64,000 bases of DNA, taken from Pseudonocardia sp. Lineage in GTDB: Bacteria > Actinomycetota > Actinomycetes > Mycobacteriales > Pseudonocardiaceae. The stretch is from assembly GCA_016794615.1 (NCBI GenBank), contig JAEUJO010000140.1, forward strand, positions 14,638-78,637, given 5' to 3'. Numbering within the stretch: position 1 is the first letter of the stretch; every line of letters begins with the position of its first letter. Position numbers and translations under genes: made by a program. The notes beneath the pieces are model-generated. The model saw nothing but the letters and a program-made list of their open reading frames with translations, made no database searches and was not told the DNA's origin. Below, one piece after another: positions 45,417 through 61,835 of the stretch.

Positions 45417-45431
45417 CGCTGCGGCCGCCGA

Positions 45432-46879: not shown

Positions 46880-46904
46880 GCGTCGAGCGGTGTTGCTGGT
46901 GACG

Positions 46905-46944
46905 ATCTTACCTGGTGGGATCAGCGTCCCACCAGGTGGGATCA
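46905..46944 (-). promoter_or_regulatory. Candidate capsid promoter with overlapping hairpin/operator
   Basis: Minus-strand TCCC-N6-TAAGAT; 11-bp stem ACCTGGTGGGA/TCCCACCAGGT (46910-46937); GGTGGGATCA repeated at 46914 and 46935. Confidence 0.55.
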
Positions 46945-46945
46945 A

Positions 46946-47545
46946 TCAGGCTGCCGCGGGGAGGATCGGCAGGCCGGCCAGGATCTGCGCGGCCTGCGCC
47001 GCCCGGGACGCCGCGCCGCACGTGCACGCCGCGGCCACCGCCTCGGGGTCGCCGAACATCTGGCGGACCGCCGACACAGTGGCGCCGCGGCCGTAGGCGC
47101 CCTGGAGCACCACGGACACCTCCACCAGGTCGGCCTTGGTGCGCTCGATCGTCCCGTCAGGAAGCCGGCGCTGCTGGCGCTCGCGGAAGCCCACGCTCAG
47201 CTCGTCCAGGACGCCGTCCCGCAGCAGCTCCAGGGTCTCGTCCCCCACCGCCGTGGCCGAGACGCGCCAGGCGCCCCACAGCCCCGCGGCGTCGTCGCGC
47301 AGCTCGATGGCCTTGCCGATGACCGCGCCGCCGTACGCCATGTGCTCGCGGGTGAAGCGGACCCGGTTGGGCGCGCCGAGCTGGTGGCTGAACGCGCCCC
47401 GGGCGAACTGCTCGGTGAGGTCCGCCGTGATGCGCTGCCGGCGGCCGTAGGGCACCGCGATGCCTTCCACCGTGCGCCCGTCGCCACCCTTGGCGGCGCT
47501 GCGAATCTCCAGCTCGGGCGTGAACGCGCGGATGATCTCGGTCAT
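46946..47545 (-). CDS. HK97-family prohead protease
   Basis: RTVEGIAVPYG, EQFARGAF, REH, ELSVGF and LVEVSVV. Confidence 0.92.
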   Translation of the reverse strand: MTEIIRAFTPELEIRSAAKGGDGRTVEGIAVPYGRRQRITADLTEQFARGAFSHQLGAPNRVRFTREHMAYGGAVIGKAIELRDDAAGLWGAWRVSATAVGDETLELLRDGVLDELSVGFRERQQRRLPDGTIERTKADLVEVSVVLQGAYGRGATVSAVRQMFGDPEAVAAACTCGAASRAAQAAQILAGLPILPAAA

Positions 47546-47784
47546 CGGCTCACCTTGGGGTCGGCGGCATCGGCGAGGCCGCGGTGGGTCTGGCGGTGGG
47601 CGGGGCACAGCCCGCGCCACTCGGGCTGGTGGCGGCACCGCGGCACGTTGCACAGCACCGGGCGGACCTCCACGTCCACCACGGGCTCGGGCAGGGCCGG
47701 CGCGTCCTCGGCGGCCACGGGGGCCGGCACGCCCTCGACGTCGTCGGCGGCCGCGTGGCGGGGGCTGGGGCTGGGCTTGCTCAT
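47542..47784 (-). CDS. Small protein with a C-x4-C..GLC-x2-H zinc-finger-like motif
   Basis: LCNVPRCRHQPEWRGLCPAH; ATGA overlaps at both ends. Confidence 0.65.
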   Translation of the reverse strand: MSKPSPSPRHAAADDVEGVPAPVAAEDAPALPEPVVDVEVRPVLCNVPRCRHQPEWRGLCPAHRQTHRGLADAADPKVSR

Positions 47785-49001: not shown

Positions 49002-49515
49002 AGTGGTCTCCCTTGCGAAGCGGGGCATCGAGATGCCGGTGGCAGGAGGCGCACAGCGGGCGGTAACGGGTGATGTCGCGGCTGTAGGCGCAGCCGCTCC
49101 CGGGGTCCACCAGCTCGTCCGGGTCTGCGTTGTCGTAGGCCCACTCGCGGGCAGGGGCGCCGCACGCGCAGGTGTGCCCCGAGGCTGCCCCCCGAGCGCG
49201 CCGGATCGCGAGGTGAGTGGCCGCGTACCCGCCCGGGCGGTCGTGCCAGGGCTTCAGGACCACCTCGACATCGCCGTGGCTGCGGTGCCGCTTGTAGTGG
49301 GTGTTGCAGTAGCCGCCTGCAAGGTGGGGCTCTGCGCAGTCGGTGACCCCGCAGAGGGTCTGCCGGGGAACCGAAGGGCGCCGCTGCGGGCCGATCGCAG
49401 CCGGGCCCGGGTCGCCGGTGCGCATCCACCGCTTGTAGTGAGGCTTGCAGTAGCCCCGGATGATCGTCTGACTGGACGACGTGCAGGCGGGCACAGAGCA
49501 GCGGGTAGCCTTCAT
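48988..49515 (-). CDS. Putative free-standing His-Me finger/HNH-like endonuclease with tandem zinc fingers
   Basis: Two C-x4-C..GYC-x2-HY repeats; C-terminal CACG..WAYD..Y..LCASCH; own SD; overlaps the portal start. Confidence 0.7.
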   Translation of the reverse strand: MKATRCSVPACTSSSQTIIRGYCKPHYKRWMRTGDPGPAAIGPQRRPSVPRQTLCGVTDCAEPHLAGGYCNTHYKRHRSHGDVEVVLKPWHDRPGGYAATHLAIRRARGAASGHTCACGAPAREWAYDNADPDELVDPGSGCAYSRDITRYRPLCASCHRHLDAPLRKGDHCGTR

Positions 49516-49637
49516 GGCTAGCCCCCTCTCGCTTGGATCGAGTAGGCGGGTCAGGCCCCGGATGAGCGTTGGCGCGCTCTCCGGGGTCGTCTCATTCTCG
49601 CACGGCGTGATCACGGCTAGGCCCATCGGGGCACCCA

Positions 49638-49844
49638 TCACTCCACCCCCGCGGTGCCAACGCCGCTACGGCGATCTGAGGGCGCGCCAGGACGCTTCCT
49701 GACGATCGCCTCGGCGGCCGTGGCCGCCGTAAGGGCCAGTGCGCCATCGACGACCAGCGCGCCACCTGGCGGCAGCAGCAGTGCCACGCCGACCAGGACG
49801 GCGAGCACGCCGAGCGCCTGGAGCGCGGTCAGGACATGAGTCAT
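49638..49844 (-). CDS. Small two-TM membrane protein
   Basis: Hydrophobic, TGATG-coupled to the terminase large subunit gene. Confidence 0.7.
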   Translation of the reverse strand: MTHVLTALQALGVLAVLVGVALLLPPGGALVVDGALALTAATAAEAIVRKRPGAPSDRRSGVGTAGVE

Positions 49845-51337
49845 CAGGGGGCCTCTCGGCAGAAGACGCGGGCGCGCTGGCGCTTGACGGGAGCGGGGAA
49901 CGTGCGGGCGATGCGGACAGCGCCGGCCATCGCATAGGTGCCGTCGACATGGCCGGCGCCCTTGCGGCTGAACCGCCAGCCGTCGCCGGACTGGAGTCGC
50001 GCGGACGCCGCCACGTGGGCATTAAGTAGGGGGTCGTTCGGGTGCGCGATCCGGCGGGACTGGACCAGGTCGGCGAACTCCTGGCACAGCTCGATGACCT
50101 CGGACCCCTTCAGCTCGACGGCGTCCAGGCCGCGCAGGTCCGCACCGAGCGCAGCACCCGGGCCAGACGGGAACCACCCGAACGCCCGAGGGCGAACGCG
50201 GGCCACGATCCCCGGCAACGCCCGGCGGGCCTCATCGACCGTGCGCCAGTTCGCGAACGCCTCCACCCGCAGCTGGCCGTCATCGAGCACGCCGGCGCCG
50301 GCGAGGGTCACGTGGGCACCGTCCGGGGCGACGTCCAGGCACAGCGCGACGCGGTCACGCACCGCGGCCAGCGAGCCCGTGGGGTCTGCGCTGGCCTTCC
50401 ACGCCTCCAGGTCCAGCGCCGCATCCAGCGCATCCACCCGCATGCACAGGTTCTCGGTGCGGAACACGGCCGGCGGGTCGGTGGACAGAAACGACCGGAG
50501 CGCATCGACCGTCAGCGTGTAGCCCAGCGCCGGGTTGGCCTGCGCCCAAGCGTCCAGGTCGTCCAGCTCGCAACCGTCCGGGGCGGACCACTCGAACAGG
50601 CCCACCGAGTCGTCAGTCTCGGCCAGCGCCACCGAGCGCAGGCTGTTGAGCACGACGGACTGATCATCCCCGGCGTTGGAGATACCGAAGGTCAGCGCGT
50701 TGGCCCGGGCCGTGGTGGTCTTGGTCAGGGCGCCGTACGCCAGCCAGTCCCGGTGCTCGCGCAGCTCATCGAGCAGGAGGGCGTCCACCGACAGGCCACG
50801 GCCGGCGCCCCGGGTGGCAGCGCTGACCTTGTACCGCGAGCCGTTGACCAGGCCCAGGCACTGCTCGCCGTTGACCCGGCGTACCACGTCGACCTCGGCC
50901 GCCAGGTCCGGGACGTCCTCGGCCAGCTCGACGGCGCCGGCCCACGACTCCATCGCAATCGCGAGCGACTGCGCGGCGCCCAGCACGGTGACCTTCTCGC
51001 GCTGGCCTCGGACGTACAGGAAGTACAACGCCACCAGGCGGCAAATCCAGCTCTTGCCGTTCTGCCGCGAGATCAGGATCAGCAGGGTGCGGAACCGGAA
51101 CCGGCCCGGCGCGCGCAGCTCCAGGGCGTGAATCAGGAGCCACCGCTGGTAGGGCAGCAGCTTGACGCCCAGGATGTCCTCGGCGAACCGGACCGCGCGG
51201 AACCCCTCGGACGTCTCCGGTGTCAGCGCGCAGGAGCACCCGCACGGGCCGGGCTTCCCGGTGACCAGCGGCCGCGTGAACAGGCGCGGCGTCGTCGAGC
51301 CCCGCACCTCCACCGGGCGGTCCAGGACGGCCGTCAC
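49844..51337 (-). CDS. Terminase large subunit
   Basis: LLPYQRWLL, Walker A ISRQNGKS, Walker B LLLDELRE, ISNAG, ANPALG, nuclease LDVA and DGTYA. Confidence 0.95.
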   Translation of the reverse strand: MTAVLDRPVEVRGSTTPRLFTRPLVTGKPGPCGCSCALTPETSEGFRAVRFAEDILGVKLLPYQRWLLIHALELRAPGRFRFRTLLILISRQNGKSWICRLVALYFLYVRGQREKVTVLGAAQSLAIAMESWAGAVELAEDVPDLAAEVDVVRRVNGEQCLGLVNGSRYKVSAATRGAGRGLSVDALLLDELREHRDWLAYGALTKTTTARANALTFGISNAGDDQSVVLNSLRSVALAETDDSVGLFEWSAPDGCELDDLDAWAQANPALGYTLTVDALRSFLSTDPPAVFRTENLCMRVDALDAALDLEAWKASADPTGSLAAVRDRVALCLDVAPDGAHVTLAGAGVLDDGQLRVEAFANWRTVDEARRALPGIVARVRPRAFGWFPSGPGAALGADLRGLDAVELKGSEVIELCQEFADLVQSRRIAHPNDPLLNAHVAASARLQSGDGWRFSRKGAGHVDGTYAMAGAVRIARTFPAPVKRQRARVFCREAP

Positions 51338-51543
51338 GGGTGGTCCAGCTCGACGCCGGGGTCATCGGTCAGCTTCACGCCCGTGGGTGGCGTGGTGGCC
51401 TGTCGGACCGCGGAACCTACGGGCTCGCCACCGAACTTGGGCACCGGGACCGCCGGCGGGAACAGCAGGAACGCCAGCCCGGCCGCCAGGAACGTCCCGA
51501 ACGTCACCCACGCGACCAGCGCGGCGAACTCCCGGCCGCTCAC
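51334..51543 (-). CDS. Small single-TM protein
   Basis: Hydrophobic N-terminus; GTGA overlaps at both ends. Confidence 0.65.
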   Translation of the reverse strand: MSGREFAALVAWVTFGTFLAAGLAFLLFPPAVPVPKFGGEPVGSAVRQATTPPTGVKLTDDPGVELDHP

Positions 51544-51935
51544 GCGCCGGCCTCATCGCGGAGCAGGGCCAGCGCGGACTTTCCGCTAGCCGGGGGCGGC
51601 TTGCCGACTACCGCGCGAGCCTTGGGCGTGGCGCCCAGCGCATCGAGCGCGGCCTGGAGCTTGGGGCCGACGTCGACCGCGACCGTGTGCGCGTCCACCT
51701 TCAGCTTCAGCCGGGCCACCAGTGTCGCAGTGTCCGGGTCATAGGGCAGCGCGGCGGCCTCATCCGCCAGCTTGCGCGCATCGTCGATCGTCCGGCCGTA
51801 CCGCAGCGCCAACGCCCGGATTCCGGCGTCTTCCGGCTGGAGCTGGAGCTTGCTCAGCGTGTCCGCCACGGCCTGCTCGATCTCGCCGGGCTTGTGCGCC
51901 GGAACGGCGGCAAGGGCGCGCTTCCTCGGTGGCAA
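51540..51935 (-). CDS. Terminase small subunit
   Basis: TTG start with a GGGAGGG SD; LALRYGRTID and GPKLQAALDALGATPKAR, typical of actinophage TerS. Confidence 0.85.
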   Translation of the reverse strand: MPPRKRALAAVPAHKPGEIEQAVADTLSKLQLQPEDAGIRALALRYGRTIDDARKLADEAAALPYDPDTATLVARLKLKVDAHTVAVDVGPKLQAALDALGATPKARAVVGKPPPASGKSALALLRDEAGA

Positions 51936-52136
51936 CCGACGACCCTCCCACTTGTCGAGACGTTTATCTCAGCATACGGGATGGATCATCGTCAGCCCAG
52001 GTCAGGGCATGCCGCCCGGATTCTCGTCAGAACGGGGGGAAAAAACCTTGACGGCAGCGGGTCAACCGGTGGCCCTCTGTCACCAAAAATCCCGCGGCCC
52101 GGTGCTGACCTGCGACGATGCACGCGGGGAGGAGAC
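51936..52136. other. Non-coding interval between HNH and terS, probable cos/packaging region
   Basis: Canonical position for cos phages; A/T tracts (GGGGGGAAAAAA, CAAAAATCCCGCGGCCCGG) in a GC-rich background. The exact cut site cannot be determined. Confidence 0.55.
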
Positions 52137-52430
52137 TCACCACCACGTGCCAGGCGTGCATGGTGGGTCGATGGGCCTGCGTGCCTGTGCCGCGCCGGCC
52201 TTGCGGTTGCAGCTCGCGTGCTCGGGCCCGCTGTACTCCCGCTTGCCCGAGCCGTCCACGTGCCCAAGGTCCCACGGCTGGCCGGGCTGGATCAGCTCCC
52301 CGCATGTGTCGCGGTGACAGCGCACCCCGCCCGTGGCCACCACTGGCGCCCACCGTGCACGCAACCGCTGGTGGTAGCTGCCATACCCGCGGCGGGTGGT
52401 AGCGCCAGCGCTGCGGCGGTGGTCACCCAC
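52137..52430 (-). CDS. HNH endonuclease, gp74-like packaging cofactor
   Basis: RGYGSYHQRLR, C..CG, WDLGH, GPEHASCNRKAG; immediately upstream of terS. Confidence 0.88.
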   Translation of the reverse strand: MGDHRRSAGATTRRGYGSYHQRLRARWAPVVATGGVRCHRDTCGELIQPGQPWDLGHVDGSGKREYSGPEHASCNRKAGAAQARRPIDPPCTPGTWW

Positions 52431-52435
52431 GGCGG

Positions 52436-53200
52436 TCAGGCAGCCAGGCGTTGGGCCAGCAGGTCAGCCACCTTGGCGGCCAGGGCGTCCAGGTCCACCC
52501 CGCCTGCGCTCAGCCCGTCGATGCGCTGGGCCAGGTCACCCACGGACTCGGACACCAGCGCGAGCCCACGCTGGACGTCGGCCACCCGGTGCTCGGTGCC
52601 CACCAGGATCTGCGCGGCCTGCACGGTGTCGCCGAATGCGTTGCGGATCGGGGCAGTCCACACCTCGGCTGCGGTCACGTCGTCCTCCACGTTGCTCAGT
52701 GCCGCGCGGAACGCAGCAAGGTCCAGGTTGGGGTCGACCTTGCGGCCGGCCGGCGCGGCGACCTCCCGGTGGCCGAGCACGCGCGAGTAGGGCACGCCGT
52801 AGTAGTCGGCCAGGGCGCGGGCGCCGGCCACGTAACTGGCGTACTGCGCCGGCGGCCAGGCATCCACGCCGGTGGCCTCGGCCTCGATGCCGATGGCGTG
52901 CGCGTTGCCCTGCCACGGCTCGAACACCACGCCGGCGTGGTAGCTCAGGCCGGCGGCGACCACGTACCAGGTGCCCGAGCGCCCGAGCACCAGCTGCGCG
53001 AGCGGGCCGGCGAGTCCGGGCCGGCCGGTGGTGACGGTCGCCAGCGAGGGCGCCTCTCCGGTCGCAGGGCCGGCGGTGTGGTGCAGCACGACGCACGACA
53101 CGGACGACATGGGCCCGTGGCCGCGGGTCTGCCAGCCGGCCACCTCCTGCGCCGGGAGGCCGGCGCGGCGCAGGACGTCGGCCAGCTCGGTGAGCATCAT
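52436..53200 (-). CDS. Endolysin, N-acetylmuramoyl-L-alanine amidase (Amidase_2)
   Basis: VVLHHTA, YHAG, IGIEAE, GHREVA and KVDP; coiled-coil C-terminal tail. Confidence 0.9.
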   Translation of the reverse strand: MMLTELADVLRRAGLPAQEVAGWQTRGHGPMSSVSCVVLHHTAGPATGEAPSLATVTTGRPGLAGPLAQLVLGRSGTWYVVAAGLSYHAGVVFEPWQGNAHAIGIEAEATGVDAWPPAQYASYVAGARALADYYGVPYSRVLGHREVAAPAGRKVDPNLDLAAFRAALSNVEDDVTAAEVWTAPIRNAFGDTVQAAQILVGTEHRVADVQRGLALVSESVGDLAQRIDGLSAGGVDLDALAAKVADLLAQRLAA

Positions 53201-53334
53201 CGGTCGTCGCCCTCGCCGTCGAGCTGGTCCGCCAGCGCCTGCTCCAGTTCCTCGGCCCGGGTGGGGCGGCGGCCGTGCGGCCCGGCGGCGCTGCTGCGGC
53301 GGCGTTCCTGCACCGCGCGGGTCCGGCCGTCCAT
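53197..53334 (-). CDS. 45-aa basic peptide upstream of the lysin (absent from the ORF track)
   Basis: MDGRTRAVQERRRSSAAGPHGRRPTRAEELEQALADQLDGEGDDR; its TGA overlaps the lysin ATG. Confidence 0.55.
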   Translation of the reverse strand: MDGRTRAVQERRRSSAAGPHGRRPTRAEELEQALADQLDGEGDDR

Positions 53335-53398
53335 GGACCCATGATCTCAGATGGTGGGACGGCGCCACCCCCCAGCCACGGCGACGGGCGGCGGCGAG

Positions 53399-53563
53399 GT
53401 CCTGACCAGCTGTGTTACGGGTGTTACGGGGTCTCCAGTTCCTCTGGTGAACTATGCGCACGCGCAGGCATGTGGCCGAGCGCGCGTAGTAGCTACTTGC
53501 AACAGAGGTATACACACGGGGAACGGGGAACCCCGTAACACCCGTAACACAGCTGGTCAGGAC
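53399..53563. repeat. 33-bp perfect inverted repeat with internal iterons, candidate replication origin
   Basis: GTCCTGACCAGCTGTGTTACGGGTGTTACGGGG (53399-53431) and its exact reverse complement (53531-53563), just downstream of the helicase gene. Confidence 0.8.
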
Positions 53564-53620
53564 GTCGAAGGGCCCCGCAGCCGAGGTTGGCTACGGGGCC
53601 CTCCAGAGCCGGTGCTGCGG

Positions 53621-55471
53621 TTAGAACGAGCTGGCGTCCCCGGCTACCACCCGCAGGTGCCGGTCCTCCTGCTCGCCGCCGTTCTGCTCGGCCTCGGACA
53701 GGAAGCGGATGCCGCGCCACACCCGCGCCGTCTTGCCGGGCATCACGTACGGGGTGGCCCGCTCATCCGCGTGCGGGTCGCGCTGCGCGTCGCCCCACTT
53801 GTTCGGCACTGGCGCGGGCGGCAGCTCGCGGCGGGACTCCACGTCGCCGGCCTTGCACCGGAACACCTTGGACTCGGACTCCACGCCGAACGCAGCTTTG
53901 AGCGACGCCGGAAACCGCTGGTTGATCAGCTTCTGCGACCACTCGCGCTTGCCCTGGCCGGTCAGGAAGTCGTCGAACGCCCGCCGCAGCATGTCCCCGG
54001 TGATGAAGGTGGAGGCATCGGCCGGGGCCAGCCGCTCGGTGGCGAACTGGAAGGCCACATCGCTGTCCGAGCGCCACTCTCGGGTTGCCTGGGTCACCGG
54101 CGCCGGGTCGTCCACGGGGTTGTCCCGCTGCGCGTACCAGGCCATGGCGCCCTTGACTACCCACGCCAGCGCGGCGGCTGGGACGGTGGCCCCGTGCTGC
54201 ATGTACGGCCGCAGGGTCTTGTCACCCGGCAGCTCATGCGCGGCGAGCACCTGGCCCGGCTGGGCCTTCACGAACGTGAACGGCCACGGCATTTTCTTCA
54301 ACCGCCGCCAGGTGGCGTGGTCGGTGGCGTCCACCTGCGGCTGGTGGTTGGTGTTGATGAACAGCGAGTGCGTGGGCTTGAACTCCACCGTGTCCTGCCG
54401 CATGTGCCGCGCCTTGATCTTGGGCGTGCCCACGATGGTCTTCAGCCGGTGGGTGTCCAGGTGGCCCTCCTCGGCGGTCTCCTCCATGAGGGCGAGCCGG
54501 GCGCCGCGCAGGTCCATCAGCTCGGTGGGGTGCTGCCCCGGCTGCGCGAGCAGTACCCGGTCAGACACCAGCGTGTAGTACGTGCCGGCGGCCCGGGTCA
54601 TGGCCTCCATCACCGTGCTCTTGCCGTTCTCGCCGCCGCCGGTGGACAGCACCAGGCTGTCATCGTCGGGCGTGTGGCCGGTCATGGCCTGACCCATGCG
54701 CATCTGGAACCACTCGCGGCAGTCCGCCCCCACGGCGTTCAGGGCCTGCTCGAACCGCTCGCACCGCGCCGCCGGGTCGTAGTCCCCGCCGGCCAGGTGG
54801 GTGATCAGCAGCTCGGGGTCGTGCGGCCGCAGCTCGCCGGTGCGCAGGTCCACCACGCCGTTGTGGCAGTTGAGCAGGTCGTGGTGGGTGTCCAGCTCGG
54901 CTGCGTCGGTCAGCACGCCGTCCAGCCGCCGGCACAGCTTGGTCACGTTGCCGATCTTGGACTCTTGCAGCAGGTTCAGCCAGATGTCCGCCTGCACGCG
55001 GGCCTCCCGCAGCTCGCGGCTCAGCTCGGCGTGCCGCTCGGCCTCCTCCTCGGTGGCGTAGGTGGCCAGCAGCTTGGCCAGGGCCTTGTCTGGCCGGTCG
55101 TCGGTCCGCGCGGCCTCCACCTCGGCGGCCGGTGCGCGGCCCAGGATCTCGCCTTCCAGGTCGTCCACGGCCTGCTGAAGCTTGACGATCTCGGCGCGCA
55201 GGTCCTTCTCGGTGCGGTCGAGGAACAGCCGCACGGCCTCCCGGGCGCGTTCCTCGCACGCCGGGCCAGTCAGCCAGCGGGTGCCGTCCCATGCCAGCCA
55301 GCCGAGCCCGGGGGCGTACCGGAACTTGCCGAGGATGACGCGCGGGGCCACCTCGTCGGCGGCGCGGGACTCGGCGCCGTGGGTCTTGGCCAGCTTGGTG
55401 AGCGTGCCGGGCGCCGGGTCGGTGCCCTCCTGCGCGGCCTTCAGCAGGTCATCGAACAGGGATTCGGACAT
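53621..55471 (-). CDS. P4-family primase-associated SF3 helicase (D5-like)
   Basis: WLAWDGTRW, LLNCHNGVVDLRTG, Walker A GGGENGKST, LMDLRGARL, INTNHQP and TWRRL. Confidence 0.92.
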   Translation of the reverse strand: MSESLFDDLLKAAQEGTDPAPGTLTKLAKTHGAESRAADEVAPRVILGKFRYAPGLGWLAWDGTRWLTGPACEERAREAVRLFLDRTEKDLRAEIVKLQQAVDDLEGEILGRAPAAEVEAARTDDRPDKALAKLLATYATEEEAERHAELSRELREARVQADIWLNLLQESKIGNVTKLCRRLDGVLTDAAELDTHHDLLNCHNGVVDLRTGELRPHDPELLITHLAGGDYDPAARCERFEQALNAVGADCREWFQMRMGQAMTGHTPDDDSLVLSTGGGENGKSTVMEAMTRAAGTYYTLVSDRVLLAQPGQHPTELMDLRGARLALMEETAEEGHLDTHRLKTIVGTPKIKARHMRQDTVEFKPTHSLFINTNHQPQVDATDHATWRRLKKMPWPFTFVKAQPGQVLAAHELPGDKTLRPYMQHGATVPAAALAWVVKGAMAWYAQRDNPVDDPAPVTQATREWRSDSDVAFQFATERLAPADASTFITGDMLRRAFDDFLTGQGKREWSQKLINQRFPASLKAAFGVESESKVFRCKAGDVESRRELPPAPVPNKWGDAQRDPHADERATPYVMPGKTARVWRGIRFLSEAEQNGGEQEDRHLRVVAGDASSF

Positions 55472-56784
55472 CAGGCGGCGCTCGCATTCGCGTTCAGGAT
55501 GGCGCCCAGCGCCAGCTTCAGGGTGGTCTTGGGGGAGCTGGCGTCCATGACGCCGTGGTGGCGGTGGCCGTCGATGAGGGCGCGCACGGCGGCCTCGGCC
55601 GGGTAGTGGCCGGCGATGGACTCGCTGATCAGGTGCCAGGCGTGGTGGTGGAGCAGGTCCGCGGGGTCGGCCTTCATCCAGGTCACGCGCCGCCCGAGCC
55701 GGGCGGGGTCGGTGTAGCGGGTGAACGTGGCCAGGTACGTCTCCACGTCCGCGTCGTCGGCGGGCGGCACCTGCGGCATCGGCTGCGCCGTGGCGCCCTG
55801 CGGGCCCCGGTAGCTGCCGCCCTGGAAGAACCCGCGGGGCTCGGCGGGCTTGACCGGCTTCTGCTGCGCGATGGTGGCGCAGGCCCGCAGCAGGCTGGTG
55901 GCCTCACCAGCCGGACGCCCGGCGGTGGCCAGGTAGCCGGTGAAGCGGTCCCACAGCAGATCGAGCAGCACGCGGACGCCGGTGTGGCCCTCGCGCCCGA
56001 GCATGAGCGCGTGCACGGCGGCGTCCTTGAACTCGTCGTGGCCGACGTGCTGAGCGGGTGCCGCCCACCGGTTCATAACGTGGCGGACCAGGCCGTCCGG
56101 CTCGCCCTCGGGGAAGCTGGCGACCAGGGCGCGCAGGTCCACCGTGTCCACGCTCTTGTCCACGTTGCCCGCCGTGCCGCGCAGCGCGGCGAACCACTCG
56201 GCGGGCAGCTCGGGGAACACCTCGGCGCGCGGGTAGCGGGTGGTGCGCTCGCCCCACGTGGGCGGCACGCCGGGCTCGCCCGGGAGGTACCAGGCGTACT
56301 CGGCGCCGGTGTCGGGGTGCACCGAGGGTGCGCACACCGTGTAGCGGTGGTGCCAGCAGCACAGCTCCACCGACTTGCACGGCTTGGTCTTCAGCCGCAC
56401 GTCCTCGGGGATGCGGTAGACGTACTGCCGCGACGGGCTGTCGTCGCCCCGCGCCGTGCTGGACCAGGTGGCGGGCAGCGGCGGCAGGCCGCGCTCGGCG
56501 GCGAACGCGGCGAGCTGGGCCACCCCGTCCTTGTCGCCGTAGCCGTGGTCCACGTCGATGGCGAGCGTGAGCTGGTGGCGCAGCCCGATGTTGTCCATGC
56601 GGTGCCCGCGCCCTGCCTTGGCGCGCTTCACCGGGTCCGAGTCCAGCCAGGCTGCCACCTTGGCCGGCGTCACGGTGCCGTCGTAGCCGGTCGCGCCGCC
56701 GACGGGCCGGCTCTTGCCCTCCACGGGGATCGGCCACAGGTGGCCCATCTCGTAGATTTCGGCGGCGTCGTCGTAGGCGCCCAT
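55471..56784 (-). CDS. Bifunctional DNA primase/polymerase (Prim-Pol)
   Basis: WPIPVEGKSRP, NIGLR, AIDVD, LPATWSST and YTVCAPSVHP; TGATG-coupled to the helicase gene. Confidence 0.85.
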   Translation of the reverse strand: MGAYDDAAEIYEMGHLWPIPVEGKSRPVGGATGYDGTVTPAKVAAWLDSDPVKRAKAGRGHRMDNIGLRHQLTLAIDVDHGYGDKDGVAQLAAFAAERGLPPLPATWSSTARGDDSPSRQYVYRIPEDVRLKTKPCKSVELCCWHHRYTVCAPSVHPDTGAEYAWYLPGEPGVPPTWGERTTRYPRAEVFPELPAEWFAALRGTAGNVDKSVDTVDLRALVASFPEGEPDGLVRHVMNRWAAPAQHVGHDEFKDAAVHALMLGREGHTGVRVLLDLLWDRFTGYLATAGRPAGEATSLLRACATIAQQKPVKPAEPRGFFQGGSYRGPQGATAQPMPQVPPADDADVETYLATFTRYTDPARLGRRVTWMKADPADLLHHHAWHLISESIAGHYPAEAAVRALIDGHRHHGVMDASSPKTTLKLALGAILNANASAA

Positions 56785-57125
56785 CACGCGGCCCACCGGA
56801 GGAGGTCCCGGTCCCAGCCCAGCGTCATCGCGGCGTAGACGGGCTCGCCGTCGATGTGGTGGCCGAGTGCGGCCGCGGCCTCGGCGAACGCCGTGGCGTA
56901 CTGCCAGCCGATGAACCACTGCCGGCCCAGGCTCCACCACTCGCGGCGGTCCGCCGGGACGATGGCCTTCAGCAGCTTGGTCAGCTCCCAGTCGTAGGGG
57001 AAGCTGACGGCCACGTGGCCGTCGGGCCGGCGGCGCAGGGTCACGGTCTTGCAGCCGCGGGGGTGGCCTGCGGCGTTGCCGCGGGTAGACTGGTGTGCAG
57101 TCACAGGGGTCTCTCCTGTGGTCAC
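56784..57125 (-). CDS. Hypothetical protein (HARP-like small domain)
   Basis: VAVSFPYDWELTKLLKAIVP..REW..RQW; coupled to Prim-Pol. Start uncertain. Confidence 0.65.
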   Translation of the reverse strand: MTTGETPVTAHQSTRGNAAGHPRGCKTVTLRRRPDGHVAVSFPYDWELTKLLKAIVPADRREWWSLGRQWFIGWQYATAFAEAAAALGHHIDGEPVYAAMTLGWDRDLLRWAA

Positions 57126-57207
57126 GGCGGGTCCGGGCGTTCGCGGCGCCAGGGCCCGCCTTTTGCTTGCCGGCCTGTGGGGAGTCAGGCGGCGGTCGTG
57201 CGGCCGC

Positions 57208-57381
57208 TCAGGCGGCGTCCGTGAGCGCGCTGCCTGCTGCGCTGGCGGGGTCGTGCGGGGTGCGGGTCTGTCCGTAGGTGCGGCGGATGAGGCCGAGCTG
57301 GGCGACGGACAGCGGCCAGGGCTCGGCCATCTGCTCGGCCACCCACTGGTCGATGGCCTCGGCGTCCTGCTGCGTGATCAC
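57208..57381 (-). CDS. Small hypothetical protein
   Basis: VITQQDAEAIDQWVAEQMAEPWPLSVAQLGLIRR; GTGA overlap with the upstream HTH gene. Confidence 0.6.
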   Translation of the reverse strand: MITQQDAEAIDQWVAEQMAEPWPLSVAQLGLIRRTYGQTRTPHDPASAAGSALTDAA

Positions 57382-57593
57382 GCCGCGGCTGCCTTGGCGT
57401 CGATCCACGCGCGGACGTCGCTGAGCCGGTACCGCACGTACTTGCCCAGCCGGATGGCGCGCGGCCCGGTGCCCTCGGCGGTCCACTTGCGCACGCTGCG
57501 GGCGGGGATGCCGCCGAGCAGGGCGCACAGCTCGGACTGCGTCAGGAGCCGGTCCTGGTCCTCGCCGGGTGCGATCGGGGCGATCGTCTCCAT
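57378..57593 (-). CDS. AlpA/excisionase-like HTH protein (Cro/Xis/RDF candidate)
   Basis: LLTQSELCALLGGIPARSVRKW..GTGPRAIRLGKYVRYRLSDVRAWI; divergent from the repressor; GGAGGA SD. Confidence 0.88.
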   Translation of the reverse strand: METIAPIAPGEDQDRLLTQSELCALLGGIPARSVRKWTAEGTGPRAIRLGKYVRYRLSDVRAWIDAKAAAA

Positions 57594-57683
57594 CGGGTCC
57601 TCCTGTCGGGTGTCATCGGCCGTTAGCGGCCAACGCGGACGACAGTAGCACGATCATCCGCTAGCAGACTCCATTAGAGCACG

Positions 57684-57760
57684 ACACTTAGTGTGTTCTA
57701 GAACACGGCAGTTCCCAGGCAACCCGGCGGGTCTTGTGGCTGTTGTCGGCCACTAGTGGC
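57684..57760. promoter_or_regulatory. Palindromic operators in the divergent repressor/Cro switch
   Basis: ACAC-TTA-GTGT (57684-57694), perfect GTGTTCTAGAACAC (57693-57706) and perfect GCCACTAGTGGC (57749-57760). Confidence 0.65.
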
Positions 57761-57772
57761 ACCATTCGCGCC

Positions 57773-58267
57773 ATGAGCGAGGGGACCGGCCCAACGGCCG
57801 ACGACTGGAAGCGCCTGGGTAAGGCCATCGAGGACCGACGGTTTGAGCGCGGCCTGTCGCAGGAACAGCTCGTGAAGCGTGGCGGCCCGAGCCACCAGAC
57901 CGTCCGCAACATCGAGCGCGGCCTGGTGGCCGACTACCGGCCCACCACGTTCCGCAAGCTGGACCGCGCGCTGGACTGGCTGGACGGCACCAGCGAGAAA
58001 ATCCTGCGCGGCACCGCCACCGAGGACGACATTGCCGGCGTGTGGGTGCGGGCCGGCTCGGGCGATGAGCGCGTACAGATCACCCCCGACGGCCGGCCGC
58101 TGGGGCGCGTGGTCGATGCCGGCCCGATCCCTGGCGCCGAACTTGCAGACGACGTGCGCGCGCTCATGCAACGGCTGGCGACCGAGCCATGGGTGCCGGG
58201 CACCAGCGAGGCTGTCATTGCGCTGGTCCGGCTGCTCGGCGAGCTGGAGGGCAGCGAGCGCGGATAG
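57773..58267 (+). CDS. XRE-family repressor (immunity repressor candidate)
   Basis: LGKAIEDRRFERGLSQEQLVKRGGPSHQTVRNIERG..TFRKLDRALDW; no SD, probably leaderless. Confidence 0.88.
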   Translation: MSEGTGPTADDWKRLGKAIEDRRFERGLSQEQLVKRGGPSHQTVRNIERGLVADYRPTTFRKLDRALDWLDGTSEKILRGTATEDDIAGVWVRAGSGDERVQITPDGRPLGRVVDAGPIPGAELADDVRALMQRLATEPWVPGTSEAVIALVRLLGELEGSERG

Positions 58268-58291
58268 GTGAGCTGCCCTGACCGACCAGTC

Positions 58292-58478
58292 AGGGAGGCA
58301 GACGGGGAGGCTCCCCGGCGCGCGAAAACGGGGCCCGCAGAGGTGATCTGCGGGCCCCGCATTTTGCCTCCCCAGCCTCCCCGCCGCAGGTCAGCGTGTG
58401 GAGGGAGGCTGGGGAGGCGCTGGGGAACCCTCCCCAGCCGGGGGCCTGCCTCCCCGGCTGCCTCCCCGCTGCCTCCCC
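58292..58478. repeat. Cluster of GGGGAGGC/GCCTCCCC 8-mers, clt-like locus
   Basis: Seven perfect copies (58304, 58366, 58375, 58411, 58448, 58460, 58471) and three 7/8 copies (58292, 58402, 58428), ending 4 nt from the traB stop. Confidence 0.85.
58325..58365. terminator. Bidirectional intrinsic terminator between repressor and traB
   Basis: AAAA-CGGGGCCCGCAGA-GGTGA-TCTGCGGGCCCCG-CA-TTTT. Confidence 0.8.
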
Positions 58479-58482
58479 AAGG

Positions 58483-60762
58483 TCAGGCGGCCGTGTCGCG
58501 CCGCCGGAACGCCGCGTCCACGTCCTCGGCGAGCACGTACATCCGACCGCCGGACAGCTTGCGCGGCTCCACGCCCTCGGCCCGCAGCCGGGCGCTGAGC
58601 GCCTTGGCGTCGAACGTCGCGGCGCCGTACTCGGCCGGGCTCTCCTGCGCGAGCAGCTTCAGCAGCGTGGTGGTGGTGACCCGGTCCTCGCCGTCCATCA
58701 CCTCGGCGACGTCGGCCAGGAAGTCCACCACCGTGGCGTCCTCGGCCGCCGCGCCGCCGCCGTTCGGGTCCACCGGGCCGCCGCGCAGCTCGATGGCCCG
58801 CCGCGCCACGTCGGTGGCCGCGTCCCCGTCGATGTAGTGCGTGCGGACGATGACCGACGACTGGCCCGGCTCCAGCTCGAAACCCTCGCCATTGAGCACC
58901 AGCACGCCCTTGTCGATGCCCGGCCGCAGCTTGTGCGGCGCGCCGCCACCGTCCACGGCCTTGGCGCCGATGGCCATCCGCGCCTGCTCCTCGGTGCCGA
59001 TGGGCAGGCAACCGCGGATGTGCGCGGCCTCGCGGATCAGCTTGGGCAGGTTCTCGTTCGTCGGGTCCTGCGTGCCCAGCCACAGCGTGACGTTGACCGC
59101 GCGACCCTGGTTGAGAATCTTGCGGGCGGCGTTGAAGAACCGGCTGGTGGCCTTGGTGCCGCCATACGGGCGCTTGTCCAGGCCGATGACCGGGCACATG
59201 AACGCCACCTGCGCCTCGTCCACGATGGCGGCCAGCGGGTGGAACCCGCTGCCCTTGCGTCGGGCCAGGTCGCGCGTCACGCCGTTGGGGAACTCCTCCT
59301 TGTCCAGGGCGCCCAGCCGGCGCTCCATCTCGGCCACCACGCCCTCCAGCATCTCGGTGGCCGCCACCACGTGCTCGTCCGCCGGGCCCTCGATCAGCAC
59401 CGTGGTCAGGCCGCCGAACATGTGCCAGTCGCCGATGCCCTTCAGGTCGGCCACGCGCAGCTCGGTGACCTTGTCCAGCGCCCACCACAGCGCGAGCGCG
59501 CGCAGCGCGGCGGTCTTGCCCTGGTTGGACAGGCCGGTGAGCAGGATGTGCCGCTGGTGCAGGCTGAGCGCGCCGAGGTCGCCGCGCATCGTCTGGCCCC
59601 ACGGCACCCGGCCGCCGTAGGTGTCGGCCTTCAGCGTCTCGTCCAGGACCAGGGGCGACGGCGGCAGCGGCTTGTCCAGCTCGCCCGGGTCGGCGGCCCA
59701 GAACCGGATGGTCCGAGGCGCCGGGACGGACATGAACAGCTCGTGCTCGTGGCGCTCCACGTTCTCGGCGGCCTTCCGGCGCCGCTTCATGATCTCCTCG
59801 GTGGACACGCCCGACGGCAGCCGCGCGTCCCACTCGGTCCCGCACCCGGCCACGCGGATCGGCGAGAGCATCCCGCCGGCCGTGTCGGTGGCCATCATGA
59901 CCTCGATGGCCTTCCGCAGCGGCGCAATGCCCAGGTCGCGCAGCATCAGCACGGCCTTGTGGGGGGTGATGTCGGCGCCGAGCGCGGCGGCCTGTGCCTT
60001 GGTCAGCAGGAACTTGGGCGCGTTCACGGCCCGGTCGCCCTCGCGCCACGACCAGATCAGCAGGATCGGCAGCGCGGCCCAGGCGCCGAGGATGGCGGCC
60101 CACTGCACGGCCCAGGCGATGCACTGGATCACGTCGTTGACGAACGCCCACCAGGACAGGAAGTCCCAGTCCGGACACGTCGCCCGGACTGCCGGGTCGG
60201 GGTCGCCGCACTCGGGCGAGGTATTCGGGGTGAGCTGCGCGGCGAGCGAGATCAGCAGATTCACGATCAGGAGCACGGCGACGATCAGGCCGAGCACGGC
60301 GCCGGCCATCAGCACCTGCTTGGGCAACGAGAGCAGGTGTGCCCGCCGGTCCGCCTTGGCCTTGGTCAGCGAGTCCAGCGCCCGGGTGGCGGCGTCGTGC
60401 TGCCCGGTCTGGTGCAGCGCGGCGATCGTGGTCTTGTGGGTCTTGTAGGTGAGCGCGCCCATGAAGCGGACCGCCCACGACTTCCACCCGGCGCCGATGG
60501 TCCACAGGACCCGGGCGAGCGCGCGGCCCCAGTCGTCCAGCGCGTGGCCGGTCTTGGCCATCGGCGCGGAGTGCACGACTGTGCCGACGATGTGGGCGGC
60601 CTGCTGCGTGCGCGTGCGCCGCGGCTCGATGTCGGCCCGGTCGGTCGGACGGACGACTACGGCGCGGGTGCGCGCCGGCGCGCGGGTGCCGAGCTTGCGC
60701 CGGATGATGCCCGGCCCGTGCTCGGCGTCCAGCTTTTCGGTGTCGCGGATCAGGTCGTCCAT
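58483..60762 (-). CDS. traB: TraB-type FtsK/SpoIIIE conjugative DNA translocase
   Basis: N-terminal TM pair, Walker A TGLSNQGKT, DLKG, Walker B IVDEAQ, LGTQDP and C-terminal winged helix (FLADVAEVMDGEDRVTTTTLL); next to an spd-like gene and 8-mer repeats. Confidence 0.88.
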   Translation of the reverse strand: MDDLIRDTEKLDAEHGPGIIRRKLGTRAPARTRAVVVRPTDRADIEPRRTRTQQAAHIVGTVVHSAPMAKTGHALDDWGRALARVLWTIGAGWKSWAVRFMGALTYKTHKTTIAALHQTGQHDAATRALDSLTKAKADRRAHLLSLPKQVLMAGAVLGLIVAVLLIVNLLISLAAQLTPNTSPECGDPDPAVRATCPDWDFLSWWAFVNDVIQCIAWAVQWAAILGAWAALPILLIWSWREGDRAVNAPKFLLTKAQAAALGADITPHKAVLMLRDLGIAPLRKAIEVMMATDTAGGMLSPIRVAGCGTEWDARLPSGVSTEEIMKRRRKAAENVERHEHELFMSVPAPRTIRFWAADPGELDKPLPPSPLVLDETLKADTYGGRVPWGQTMRGDLGALSLHQRHILLTGLSNQGKTAALRALALWWALDKVTELRVADLKGIGDWHMFGGLTTVLIEGPADEHVVAATEMLEGVVAEMERRLGALDKEEFPNGVTRDLARRKGSGFHPLAAIVDEAQVAFMCPVIGLDKRPYGGTKATSRFFNAARKILNQGRAVNVTLWLGTQDPTNENLPKLIREAAHIRGCLPIGTEEQARMAIGAKAVDGGGAPHKLRPGIDKGVLVLNGEGFELEPGQSSVIVRTHYIDGDAATDVARRAIELRGGPVDPNGGGAAAEDATVVDFLADVAEVMDGEDRVTTTTLLKLLAQESPAEYGAATFDAKALSARLRAEGVEPRKLSGGRMYVLAEDVDAAFRRRDTAA

Positions 60763-60764
60763 GG

Positions 60765-61448
60765 TCACGCCTCCTGCGGGGTGGTGGCGGTGTGGCGGTG
60801 GGTGGCGATGAGCTGCTTTGCGCGGTGCTCGGTCAGCCCGAGCTTCACGAGTGACCGGCGGCCGGCGCCCTCGTGGATGGCGGCGATGGCGCGCGTCTCC
60901 ACGTCTCCCACCTCGGCATCCACGGGTGGTGTGGCGACGGCGCGGAGTGGCGTGGCGGCCGGGGTGGCGGCCTCCACCACGGCCTCCACGGCCGGGGTGG
61001 CGGGGTGTGGCGACGTGCGGACCAGCAGCACCACCAGGTGCACCGTCGCGCCCACCACGGCGGGCGGGATGGCGCCGACCGCCACGGCCACCCACCACGG
61101 CGGGGTGACCTCGTGGGCGTGCATCCCGAGCTGCCCGGCGTTGCCGACCACGGTCACGGCGAGCAGCGCCCACGTCATCCGTCCGGCGAACCGGGCGGCG
61201 TCGGGGGTGGTTCGTCCGCCGAGCCAGGTGGCGCAGGAGACGGCGGCGCCGGCGTCGACTGCGACGGGGAGGAGCCAGGCGAACCGGGCGGGGATGCTGA
61301 CCGCGAGGGCCAGGGCGCGGAGCGCGTCGAACGAGAGGACCGCCGCGGCGGCCAGGACCACGGCAAGGCCGAGCCAGACGACCCACGGCGGGCGTGGTGC
61401 CGACCCCGGCGGAACAGGCTGCGAAGCCATGGGATCACCGAGGCTCAC
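60765..61448 (-). CDS. DUF2637/SpdA-like membrane protein
   Basis: Four TM helices, LSFDAL..AWLLPVAVDAG..VVGNA..AVGAIPP, C-terminal HTH-like tail. Start 61448 or 61430. Confidence 0.82.
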   Translation of the reverse strand: MSLGDPMASQPVPPGSAPRPPWVVWLGLAVVLAAAAVLSFDALRALALAVSIPARFAWLLPVAVDAGAAVSCATWLGGRTTPDAARFAGRMTWALLAVTVVGNAGQLGMHAHEVTPPWWVAVAVGAIPPAVVGATVHLVVLLVRTSPHPATPAVEAVVEAATPAATPLRAVATPPVDAEVGDVETRAIAAIHEGAGRRSLVKLGLTEHRAKQLIATHRHTATTPQEA

Positions 61449-61696
61449 CGCAGCACGTCCCAGTCGTCACCGTGGACGACCTGGATCAGCGCGCCCGGGT
61501 AGCGGGCCTGCCAGTCCGCCCACACCTCGGCGGCTGCGGTCATCTGGTCCTTGCCGGCGTAGTCCACCACCTTGACGGTGAGAACCGGGATGGCGCTGGA
61601 GCCGGGCACGACGTTGCGCCCGGTGCCCACGATGAACTCGGCGCGCGGCGGGCGCCGGTCTACGGCCGCGCGGGTGGGTGGGGCATGATCCGACAC
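61445..61696 (-). CDS. Hypothetical protein, first gene of the transfer operon
   Basis: AGGAGG SD; TGA overlaps the spd-like GTG. Confidence 0.65.
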   Translation of the reverse strand: MSDHAPPTRAAVDRRPPRAEFIVGTGRNVVPGSSAIPVLTVKVVDYAGKDQMTAAAEVWADWQARYPGALIQVVHGDDWDVLR

Positions 61697-61816
61697 GGGC
61701 CGGACCTCCTGTCCTAGTCAGGGGTGCGGTCAAGGGCCGGCGTGGAAGTGGTGTTCCGCGTCCGGCCCGCCTTCAGTTGTGGGCCAGCCCCTGCTCGACA
61801 TCTACGAGTTGGCTAA

Positions 61817-61835
61817 CGGCGTGCACGGGCTCTAT
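61817..61835. other. attR core
   Basis: CGGCGTGCACGGGCTCTAT; 15 bp identical to attL. Confidence 0.92.

What the first reader, a model, noticed from the sequence alone, without database searches (positions are those of the whole stretch)
58292..58478. clt-like 8-mer cluster whose unit is nearly the FtsK KOPS motif
Seen: seven perfect GGGGAGGC and three 7/8 copies in 187 bp, arranged as alternating direct and inverted groups around a bidirectional terminator. Three tandem copies (11-12 bp apart) start 4 nt after the traB stop, and the copy at 58428-58435 reads GGGGAGGG on the minus strand. Established: TraB proteins bind 8-bp repeats in a cis-acting clt locus through their winged helix (pSVH1: GACCCGGA), and FtsK reads KOPS (GGGNAGGG). 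Inference: this is the transfer locus, which implies the module is maintained. A KOPS-like unit could mean retained ancestral specificity or cross-talk with host FtsK and chromosome mobilisation.
Basis: partly seen in the sequence, partly recalled or inferred. Interest (0 to 1): 0.75.

Follow-up and report, generated by a model that had tools for sequence, protein, structure and literature searches.

The report
TraB docking-repeat array (clt) in prophage
The GGGGAGGC cluster is real and is most likely the docking site (clt) that the neighbouring conjugation-type DNA pump TraB uses to seize its own element, here a ~30-kb prophage; its likeness to the E. coli KOPS word gets no support from host strand skew or from the fold of the pump's DNA-binding tail.

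Summary
Observation confirmed. There are seven perfect GGGGAGGC and three to four 7/8 copies in 58292-58478. This is the only such cluster in the 4.36-Mb host assembly (Poisson P about 2e-18).

The array fills the 215-bp gap between the stop of an intact, membrane-anchored FtsK/SpoIIIE-type traB-like gene (58483-60762, minus) and a converging HTH gene.

Among 91 relatives (45-76% identical TraB), 81% have at least 5 copies of one 7-mer in the ~325 nt spanning the traB stop. The layout is conserved:
- direct copies, then inverted copies;
- a TGAYCWGC box;
- a tandem pair, then a last inverted copy or pair.

The word itself changes with the tip of the wing of TraB's C-terminal winged helix. Asp goes with A-GGGAG (60 loci, no exception). 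All 13 loci with G-GGGAG lack Asp. Several independent Asp-to-His switches in Streptomyces each changed all ~9 copies.

I therefore read the array as the TraB recognition array (clt), a new member of a known kind. It sits in a serine-integrase prophage whose right end resembles an actinomycete integrative conjugative element (AICE) backbone.

The KOPS idea is not supported:
- the C-terminal domain is a generic winged helix, with no FtsK-gamma match;
- GGGGAGGC and GGGNAGGG are not strand-polar in the host;
- the polar word there is GGGGGAG.

Binding and transfer remain untested.

The parts
58483..60762 (-). traB-like gene: 759-aa membrane-anchored FtsK/SpoIIIE-type dsDNA translocase with a C-terminal winged helix
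   Evidence: Homologues carry PF01580. It matches phrog_1358, FtsK/SpoIIIE-like. Walker A GLSNQGKT and Walker B IVDEAQ are among the invariant columns. Two hydrophobic segments are visible in the sequence. The C-terminal 110 aa fold as a winged helix-turn-helix, with pLDDT above 90 over the domain.
58448..58478 (-). three tandem GGGGAGGC copies (58471-78, 58460-67, 58448-55) starting 4 nt after the traB stop
   Evidence: They correspond to the first direct group seen in relatives.
58428..58435 (-). GGGGAGGG copy (7/8); fourth member of the first direct group
58402..58418 (+). AGGGAGGC-T-GGGGAGGC pair at 9-nt pitch, inverted relative to traB
58386..58393 (-). TGACCTGC box, a second conserved element that does not vary with the repeat word
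   Evidence: TGAYCWGC is present within 250 nt after the stop in 64 of 92 loci, mostly at +60 to +80. It is also present in ~30%-identical same-genus homologues that use unrelated repeat words.
58366..58382 (-). tandem pair GGGGAGGC-T-GGGGAGGC at 9-nt pitch
   Evidence: It lies at +101/+110 from the stop, against +97/+105 in relatives.
58329..58359 (.). G+C-rich hairpin flanked by A4 and T4: terminator-like element for both converging genes
   Evidence: It is part of a compound fold of the whole spacer with z = -9.1 and -8.2 on the two strands.
58292..58316 (+). distal copies AGGGAGGC (58292) and GGGGAGGC (58304), the latter overlapping GGGGAGCC on the minus strand
   Evidence: They lie at +172/+184 from the stop, against +174 in relatives.
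57734..58267 (+). converging HTH_3 regulator gene; not part of the conserved module
   Evidence: Pfam HTH_3. No homologue was found near traB in any of the 96 related loci.
60765..61448 (-). DUF2637 membrane protein gene directly upstream of traB
   Evidence: It is also next to traB in L016.
32157..61835 (.). the carrying element: a ~29.7-kb integrated prophage-like element
   Evidence: A 15-bp direct repeat GTGCACGGGCTCTAT lies at 32157 and 61821. Genes found: serine integrase 32338-33891; tyrosine recombinase 33920-35023; portal, capsid, TerL, TerS and amidase; D5-type helicase and Prim-Pol.

Best explanation
[quoted passage not shown] It is an array of ten TraB recognition sequences (unit GGGGAGGC) arranged as direct and inverted groups around a TGACCTGC box and a hairpin.

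Proposed mechanism:
1. After excision of the element as a circle, the membrane-anchored FtsK/SpoIIIE-type TraB binds the repeats through its C-terminal winged helix. The recognition helix would read the core and the wing tip the first base.
2. TraB assembles on the array.
3. TraB pumps the double-stranded element into a neighbouring cell or hyphal compartment.

Shown here: the array is real and unique in the genome. Its position and layout are conserved across the family. The repeat word co-varies with the wing. TraB is intact.

Inferred: binding, assembly and transfer. The hairpin probably also ends both converging transcripts.
For: 1. Uniqueness: this is the only cluster in 4.36 Mb, P about 2e-18.

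2. Position: in 91 related loci the commonest 7-mer in the 325 nt around the traB stop has a median of 7 copies, against 0.05 expected from the rest of the locus. 81% of loci have at least 5 copies, against 5.9% of 3436 control windows.

3. Architecture: the modal layout '>>><<<>><' lies at 0, 23, 31 | 41, 53, 66 | 97, 105 | 174 nt from the stop. The window has '>>>><<>><<' at 5, 16, 28, 48 | 65, 74 | 101, 110 | 172, 184. The TGAYCWGC box precedes the tandem pair in 64 of 92 loci.

4. Specificity:
- Wing-tip Asp goes with A before GG/TGAG or GGGAA in 60 of 60 loci, and all 13 G-type loci lack Asp (Fisher 5e-10).
- On a tree built from the motor domain alone, the Asp-to-His lineages in Streptomyces (L090, L041/L089, L056) have G in place of A in all or all but one of their 8-9 copies.
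- The same holds for the pairs L023/L019, L003/L013 and L001/L063.

5. The same word, GGGGAGGC, with the same layout follows the 52%-identical TraB of a 13.5-kb circular AICE-like Streptomyces plasmid, NZ_CP108827.1.

6. The spacer lies between two converging genes, so no promoter or operator role is expected, and none was found.

7. Literature:
- TraB of pSVH1 reads repeated 8-bp motifs through its C-terminal winged helix.
- The pWTY27 clt spans the tra 3' end plus 159 bp and contains direct and inverted repeats (PMC3583192; PMC4447253).
Against: - No binding or transfer data exist for this family.
- The tree-aware test has few contrasts: 5 supported pairs, of which 3.6 on average go the same way and 0 the other way, sign-test p 0.125.
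- Eight loci without Asp still have the A-type word, so the wing tip is not the only determinant.
- The inverted groups also make a very stable fold, so part of the concerted change of copies could reflect pairing constraints.
- In the two nearest relatives (L015, L016) the cassette is inverted relative to traB, so orientation relative to the gene is not fixed.
Confidence: 0.8

Rival explanations
1. The repeats are only the arms of a compound hairpin that terminates or stabilises the two converging transcripts. They are not a protein site.
For: The whole spacer folds far better than shuffles on both strands (z = -9.1 and -8.2). A classical terminator-like hairpin lies in the middle.
Against: - RNA pairing does not explain why the first base of every copy tracks one residue of TraB.
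- It does not explain why tandem direct copies at 8-12-nt pitch and an unpaired TGAYCWGC box are conserved.
- Relatives keep the array where the next gene is co-directional with traB, for example L007, L008 and L009.
Confidence: 0.07
2. The repeats are iterons or a replication origin, or the operator of another protein of the element (Prim-Pol/helicase replicon, the HTH_3 regulator, or DUF2637).
For: - The array lies between the transfer and replication modules, both here and in plasmid NZ_CP108827.1.
- RepAM of pMEA300 binds 8-bp repeats (PMC2440964).
Against: - The array always abuts the traB stop, whatever lies downstream.
- HTH_3 has no homologue in the 96 related loci. The helicase (D5prim query) has a homologue in only 5. 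The Prim-Pol ORF (orf489 query) has none.
- In L003, L004, L010 and L012 terminase and portal genes follow instead.
- The repeat word co-varies with TraB's own wing.
- Co-variation with DUF2637 was not tested.
Confidence: 0.08
3. The unit is a KOPS-type word. It reflects retained FtsK-gamma specificity and allows cross-talk with host FtsK or mobilisation of the chromosome.
For: - GGGGAGGC matches GGGNAGGG at 7 of 8 positions, and one copy matches fully.
- The host's most polar word, GGGGGAG, differs from the unit only by the length of the G run.
- The nearest relatives fuse a true FtsK gamma domain to the N-terminus of TraB.
Against: - HGGGGAGGC (H = not G) is 66:59 in the host and 13:8 in a 400-kb Streptomyces sample.
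- GGGNAGGG is 54:55 in that sample. In the host, GGG[ACT]AGGG, which leaves out GGGGAGGG, is 254:273.
- The C-terminal domain has no PF09397 match, and FtsK gamma is not among the top 50 fold matches.
- The family's common word is CAGGGAGGC, and other clades use unrelated words.
- There are no other clusters in the host assembly.
- The window's TraB lacks the N-terminal gamma domain.
Confidence: 0.03
4. The G runs act as a G-quadruplex element.
For: The minus strand has four GGGG tracts within about 50 nt.
Against: The same architecture is kept in relatives whose words cannot form G4: GTAGACC, CTAGCG, GTTAGGT and CAGTGAG.
Confidence: 0.02

Closest known systems
clt with TraB recognition sequences of Streptomyces venezuelae plasmid pSVH1
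   Same: An FtsK/SpoIIIE-like membrane translocase with a C-terminal winged helix reads repeated 8-bp motifs on its own replicon (PMC3583192; PMC4447253).
   Different: - The word differs.
- The TraB here is only distantly related. It did not surface among the nine plasmid tblastn hits, but I did not check whether pSVH1 is in that collection.
- Here the array is mirror-symmetric, has a conserved TGAYCWGC box, and sits in a prophage.
- Binding was shown for pSVH1, not here.
clt of Streptomyces plasmid pWTY27 (TraA)
   Same: The clt lies at the tra 3' end plus the adjacent ~160 bp. It combines direct and inverted repeats and is footprinted by the Tra protein.
   Different: - The repeat words are unrelated (TGACACC, CCCGCCC).
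- The carrier is a theta plasmid, not an integrated phage-like element.
clt of pJV1 and pIJ101
   Same: Short direct repeats plus imperfect inverted repeats are needed in cis for Tra-dependent transfer.
   Different: - The words and locations differ (pIJ101 clt lies near korB).
- No conserved 9-10-site layout has been reported.
FtsK gamma with KOPS (GGGNAGGG)
   Same: - An 8-bp G-rich word is read by a winged helix on a hexameric dsDNA pump.
- The unit here matches KOPS at 7 of 8 positions.
   Different: - KOPS are dispersed, strand-polar chromosomal words that orient a moving motor. This is one local, mirror-symmetric cluster with no chromosomal polarity.
- No gamma-domain signature is present in the reading domain.
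Streptomyces plasmid-phage pZL12
   Same: An element with both phage-particle genes and a tra-dependent conjugal transfer function (PMC4487206; PMC3583192).
   Different: - pZL12 is a ~90-kb free plasmid-prophage. That size is from my memory; the paper is not held.
- The element here is a ~30-kb integrated prophage with a serine integrase.
- I could not read any description of a clt for pZL12.

Membership tests
TraB/clt transfer module of actinomycete plasmids and AICEs | The adjacent gene encodes an FtsK/SpoIIIE-family translocase with an N-terminal membrane anchor, Walker A/B motifs and a C-terminal winged helix. | tested here: met
TraB/clt transfer module of actinomycete plasmids and AICEs | Several copies of a short (7-9 bp) word lie in a non-coding stretch on the same element, at or near the tra 3' end. 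| tested here: met
TraB/clt transfer module of actinomycete plasmids and AICEs | The word is specific for the cognate TraB, so specificity changes with its DNA-binding domain. | tested here: met
   This is comparative evidence only. The wing-tip residue and the first base co-vary (60/0/13/8). Whole-word changes go with wing changes.
TraB/clt transfer module of actinomycete plasmids and AICEs | TraB binds the repeats in vitro. | not testable with these tools
   Needs EMSA or footprinting.
TraB/clt transfer module of actinomycete plasmids and AICEs | The locus is required in cis for transfer. | not testable with these tools
   Needs a mobilisation assay.
KOPS / FtsK-orienting polar sequences | The word is strongly strand-polar along the replichores. 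| tested here: not met
   HGGGGAGGC is 66:59 in the host and 13:8 in the Streptomyces sample, whereas GGGGGAG is 104:20 there. Power is limited by the fragmented host assembly.
KOPS / FtsK-orienting polar sequences | The word is read by an FtsK gamma domain (PF09397). | tested here: not met
   The C-terminal domain has no PF09397 match at E up to 10. The Foldseek top 50 are generic winged helices. The window's TraB lacks the N-terminal gamma domain of its nearest relatives.
KOPS / FtsK-orienting polar sequences | Consensus GGGNAGGG. | tested here: inconclusive
   One copy matches fully. The unit has C at position 8.
Intrinsic terminator | G+C-rich stem-loop followed by a T run. | tested here: met
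   Met for 58329-58359 only, which is one part of the spacer.
AICE (actinomycete integrative and conjugative element) | Integrase, replication (Prim-Pol or RepSA) and Tra modules between att repeats. | tested here: met
   The element also carries terminase, portal, capsid, tail and lysis genes, so it is a phage-AICE mosaic rather than a plain AICE.

The most novel reading that the evidence does not exclude
The prophage has two routes of spread: virions, and capsid-independent transfer of its excised double-stranded genome by TraB acting on this clt, either by conjugation or by spreading between hyphal compartments. TraB-clt cassettes recur in tailed prophages of actinomycetes: portal genes are found in 9 of 14 related viral records.
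Probability: 0.35. Interest if true: 0.75.

Novelty: new member of a known kind. Interest (0 to 1): 0.5.

Why it matters
clt sites have been defined experimentally for only a few Streptomyces plasmids. A 2022 survey notes that no clt motif has been described for the archetypal integrated element pSAM2 (PMC9513070).

This case adds three things:
- A family-wide, position-fixed layout of the array.
- A simple rule linking a protein residue to a DNA base (wing-tip Asp with A; His and most other non-Asp wing tips with G, 8 loci excepted). The rule makes TraB specificity directly testable and lets clt sites be predicted from sequence.
- A conjugation cassette embedded in a tailed prophage, which bears on how phage genomes may move without capsids.

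It also shows that likeness to the E. coli KOPS word is not evidence of FtsK cross-talk in these hosts, where the polar word is GGGGGAG.

Tried and rejected
- KOPS reading: rejected after the skew tests, the Pfam scan and the fold search.
- The place list of the genome search with the pattern GGGGAGGC looked like a run of about 85 plus-strand hits. Fetching 400 kb and counting myself gave 8 plus and 26 minus. That list is therefore not a fair sample, and I did not use it.
- A profile search of the PDB with the TraB alignment gave only a marginal FtsK hit (2ius, E 0.13).
- NCBIfam gave nothing for TraB. Pfam on the window's TraB gave only a weak AAA_22 match.
- tblastn of TraB against isolated phage genomes: no match. 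blastn of the spacer against plasmids: no match.
- The generic direct-repeat search for att sites was noisy. A targeted exact-match script found the 15-bp repeat.
- PF04860 portals in 16 actinomycete genomes with a family member: in the three complete chromosomes that had a portal hit, it lies megabases from traB, and 8 genomes had no hit at all. Most family members therefore appear to sit in plain AICE-like elements, not phages.
- Vogelmann 2011 and Zhong 2010 are not held.

Full report
**1. The observation**

The stretch 58292-58478 holds seven perfect GGGGAGGC. They lie at 58304+, 58366-, 58375-, 58411+, 58448-, 58460- and 58471-, out of 13 in the 64-kb window. The 7/8 copies are at 58292+ and 58402+ (both AGGGAGGC) and 58428- (GGGGAGGG). 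A fourth, 58309- (GGGGAGCC), overlaps another copy.

The traB-like ORF ends with TGA at 58483-58485 on the minus strand.

A hairpin of 13 pairs at 58329-58359, flanked by A4 and T4, is terminator-like.

The host assembly (4.36 Mb, 367 contigs) has 244 copies of the octamer. About 0.01 are expected in 175 bp, so P(>=7) is about 1.7e-18. This is the only cluster in the assembly.

**2. The neighbouring gene**

The likely product is 759 aa, from the ATG at 60762. It has two hydrophobic segments, Walker A (GLSNQGKT) and Walker B (IVDEAQ).

Pfam gives only a weak AAA_22 hit on the protein itself. However, 1430 homologues were found, most annotated FtsK/SpoIIIE with PF01580. PHROGs gives phrog_1358, FtsK/SpoIIIE-like. 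The window protein keeps all of the more than 130 invariant columns of a 22-sequence alignment.

The last 110 aa were modelled with a 38-sequence alignment (mean pLDDT 84, above 90 over the domain). The fold is H1-b1-H2-H3-b-hairpin, a winged helix-turn-helix.

**3. The carrying element**

A 15-bp direct repeat lies at 32157 and 61821. It brackets:
- a serine integrase (32338-33891);
- a tyrosine recombinase (33920-35023);
- tail, capsid, portal, TerL, TerS and amidase genes;
- a D5-type helicase and a Prim-Pol;
- an HTH_17 protein and an HTH_3 regulator;
- traB, a DUF2637 protein and a small ORF.

Host-like genes lie outside (SodN and a histidine phosphatase on the left; a diacylglycerol kinase on the right).

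The right 8 kb resembles the backbone of a plain AICE. One example is the 13.5-kb circular Streptomyces plasmid NZ_CP108827.1, which carries GntR, SpdB, TraB, Prim-Pol, DUF3631, HTH and integrase genes. The element is therefore a phage-AICE mosaic.

**4. Relatives**

I collected 14 viral-contig loci, two Logan contigs with the closest homologues at 71-74% identity, and 80 loci from actinomycete genomes. Sequenced phage isolates gave no hit.

In 91 loci with enough downstream DNA, the commonest 7-mer in the 325 nt around the traB stop occurs 3-9 times (median 7). The rest of the locus predicts 0.05. 81% of loci have at least 5 copies, against 5.9% of 3436 control windows.

The layout is strikingly fixed. 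The modal pattern '>>><<<>><' lies at 0, 23, 31 | 41, 53, 66 | 97, 105 | 174 nt from the stop. The window has '>>>><<>><<' at 5, 16, 28, 48 | 65, 74 | 101, 110 | 172, 184.

A second element, TGAYCWGC, precedes the tandem pair in 64 of 92 loci (window 58386-58393). It persists in ~30%-identical homologues from the host's own genus whose repeat words are unrelated (GTAGACC, CTAGCG).

In L015 and L016 the whole cassette is inverted relative to traB.

**5. Who reads the repeats**

The word differs between clades:

| Repeat word | Where |
|---|---|
| CAGGGAGGC | most loci |
| GGGGAGGC | the window, L015, L016, NZ_CP108827.1 |
| C-GGGGAG | several clades |
| GGGAAG | some clades |
| CAGTGAG | some clades |
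| GGTGAGGC | some clades |
| GGTTAGGT | L005 |

These changes track the tip and second strand of the wing.

For the first base, wing-tip Asp goes with A in 60 of 60 loci. All 13 G-type loci lack Asp, having His, Gly, Ser, Asn, Val or Gln instead. Eight non-Asp loci keep A (Fisher 5e-10).

I built a tree from the motor domain alone, leaving the winged helix out. On it, the G-type Asp-to-His loci L090, L041/L089 and L056 lie in separate parts of the Streptomyces clade, next to Asp/A-type loci. They have G in place of A in all or all but one of their 8-9 copies (L056 keeps one A-type copy). Further contrasts are:
- L023 (KSDG, A) against L019 (KTSG, G);
- L003 (YDGYPVV, AGTGAG) against L013 (YQGYPVI, GGTGAG);
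- L001 (SDGQSVV, AGGGAA) against L063 (SVGQSVV, GGGGAA).

The formal independent-pairs test has only 5 well-supported contrasts. On average 3.6 go the same way and none goes the other way, sign-test p 0.125. The direction is therefore consistent, but the test is underpowered.

The converging HTH_3 gene has no homologue in any related locus. The helicase (D5prim query) has a homologue in only 5 loci, and the Prim-Pol ORF (orf489 query) in none. This argues against those proteins as the readers.

**6. Mechanism**

By analogy with pSVH1 and pWTY27, TraB would bind the array through its winged helices, assemble on the excised circular element, and pump double-stranded DNA across the membranes.

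The 8-12-nt pitch puts successive copies roughly on one face of the helix. The direct and inverted groups give mirror symmetry and allow a very stable fold (z about -9). Whether that symmetry loads two rings or only bends the DNA is speculation on my part. The central hairpin probably also terminates both converging transcripts.

**7. The KOPS idea**

The unit matches GGGNAGGG at 7 of 8 positions, but four tests go against a functional link.

(a) The reading domain has no PF09397 match even at E up to 10. Its model finds only generic winged helices (F93, TubR, MarR, Fur and others), and FtsK gamma is not in the top 50.

(b) Strand polarity in the host:

| Word | Count (same strand : opposite strand) |
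|---|---|
| CGGGGGAG | most over-dispersed octamer per contig (X 2.93) |
| GGGGAGGC, not preceded by G | 66:59, contigs oriented by GGGGGAG |
| GGG[ACT]AGGG (the KOPS consensus without its GGGGAGGG variant) | 254:273 |

(c) In a 400-kb stretch of the Streptomyces boninensis chromosome, whose TraB also uses the G-type word:

| Word | Count |
|---|---|
| GGGGGAG | 104:20 |
| HGGGGAGGC | 13:8 |
| GGGNAGGG | 54:55 |

(d) No other cluster exists in the host assembly.

The likeness may be chance or very old ancestry. It does not indicate cross-talk with host FtsK.

One related oddity remains. The nearest relatives (P0004, P0005, P0008, P0019) carry a genuine FtsK gamma domain at the N-terminus of TraB (E 2e-19 to 4e-9). 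The P0004 domain is 56% identical to the host's own FtsK gamma (43-56% for the four). The window's protein lacks that domain.

**8. Novelty**

TraB/clt with 8-bp repeats is established for plasmids. The plasmid-phage pZL12 shows that phage and tra functions can share one replicon.

This array is therefore a new member of a known kind. Three things add something beyond that:
- the fixed 9-10-site layout with a constant box;
- the residue-to-base rule;
- the prophage setting, where 9 of 14 related viral records have a portal gene.

Most genomic family members, however, are not next to a PF04860 portal.

Earlier notes of this scan report similar TraB-repeat cassettes in other phages. These are unchecked notes and do not count as independent support.

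**9. Limits**

- There are no binding or transfer data.
- The host assembly is fragmented, so the polarity tests have limited power.
- Three key papers are not held. The pSVH1 word GACCCGGA is therefore cited from memory only.

Noticed in passing
P0004, P0005, P0008, P0019 (L016:2027-4621; L015:9473-12106): The nearest TraB relatives carry a genuine FtsK gamma domain (PF09397, E 2e-19 to 4e-9) at their N-terminus, residues ~13-72. The P0004 domain is 56% identical to the host's own FtsK gamma (43-56% for the four). The window's TraB starts after that domain. A KOPS-reading domain fused to a conjugation pump has, to my knowledge, not been described.
   Followed up: partly
host genome contigs; L097-L116 (S. 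boninensis 2.0-2.4 Mb): GGGGGAG (CGGGGGAG) is the most strand-polar word. It is 84% on one strand in the Streptomyces sample and is the top over-dispersed octamer in the host. It is a candidate actinomycete FtsK-orienting word. The E. coli consensus GGGNAGGG shows no polarity.
   Followed up: partly
window 58386-58393; +60 to +80 after the traB stop in 64 of 92 loci: A constant TGAYCWGC box precedes the tandem repeat pair, even in homologues with unrelated repeat words. It may be a site for a second factor or the entry point of the pump.
   Followed up: partly
L015:12106-12260 and L016:4621-4750: In the two closest relatives the whole repeat cassette is inverted relative to traB compared with the window and all other loci.
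   Followed up: no
P0008 residues 730-803: One close TraB homologue (1205 aa) contains Hom_end and LAGLIDADG domains. This looks like an intein inserted in the motor domain.
   Followed up: no
L015:12627-16014: The phage-like contig with the 71%-identical TraB carries CRISPR-associated genes (Csf3, CRISPR_assoc) just downstream, and a resolvase plus an IS605 OrfB/TnpB-like gene just upstream.
   Followed up: no
window 33205, 33955, 35120: Three further perfect GGGGAGGC lie within 1.9 kb at the integrase end of the prophage (0.11 expected, P about 2e-4). After circularisation they would lie roughly 4.5-6.5 kb from the array.
   Followed up: no
L123 (NZ_CP108827.1) 7600-7725: A 13.5-kb circular AICE-like Streptomyces plasmid, typed 'non-mobilizable' by MOB-suite, has the same GGGGAGGC word, the same layout and a CTGATCTGC box after its TraB gene.
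   Followed up: yes
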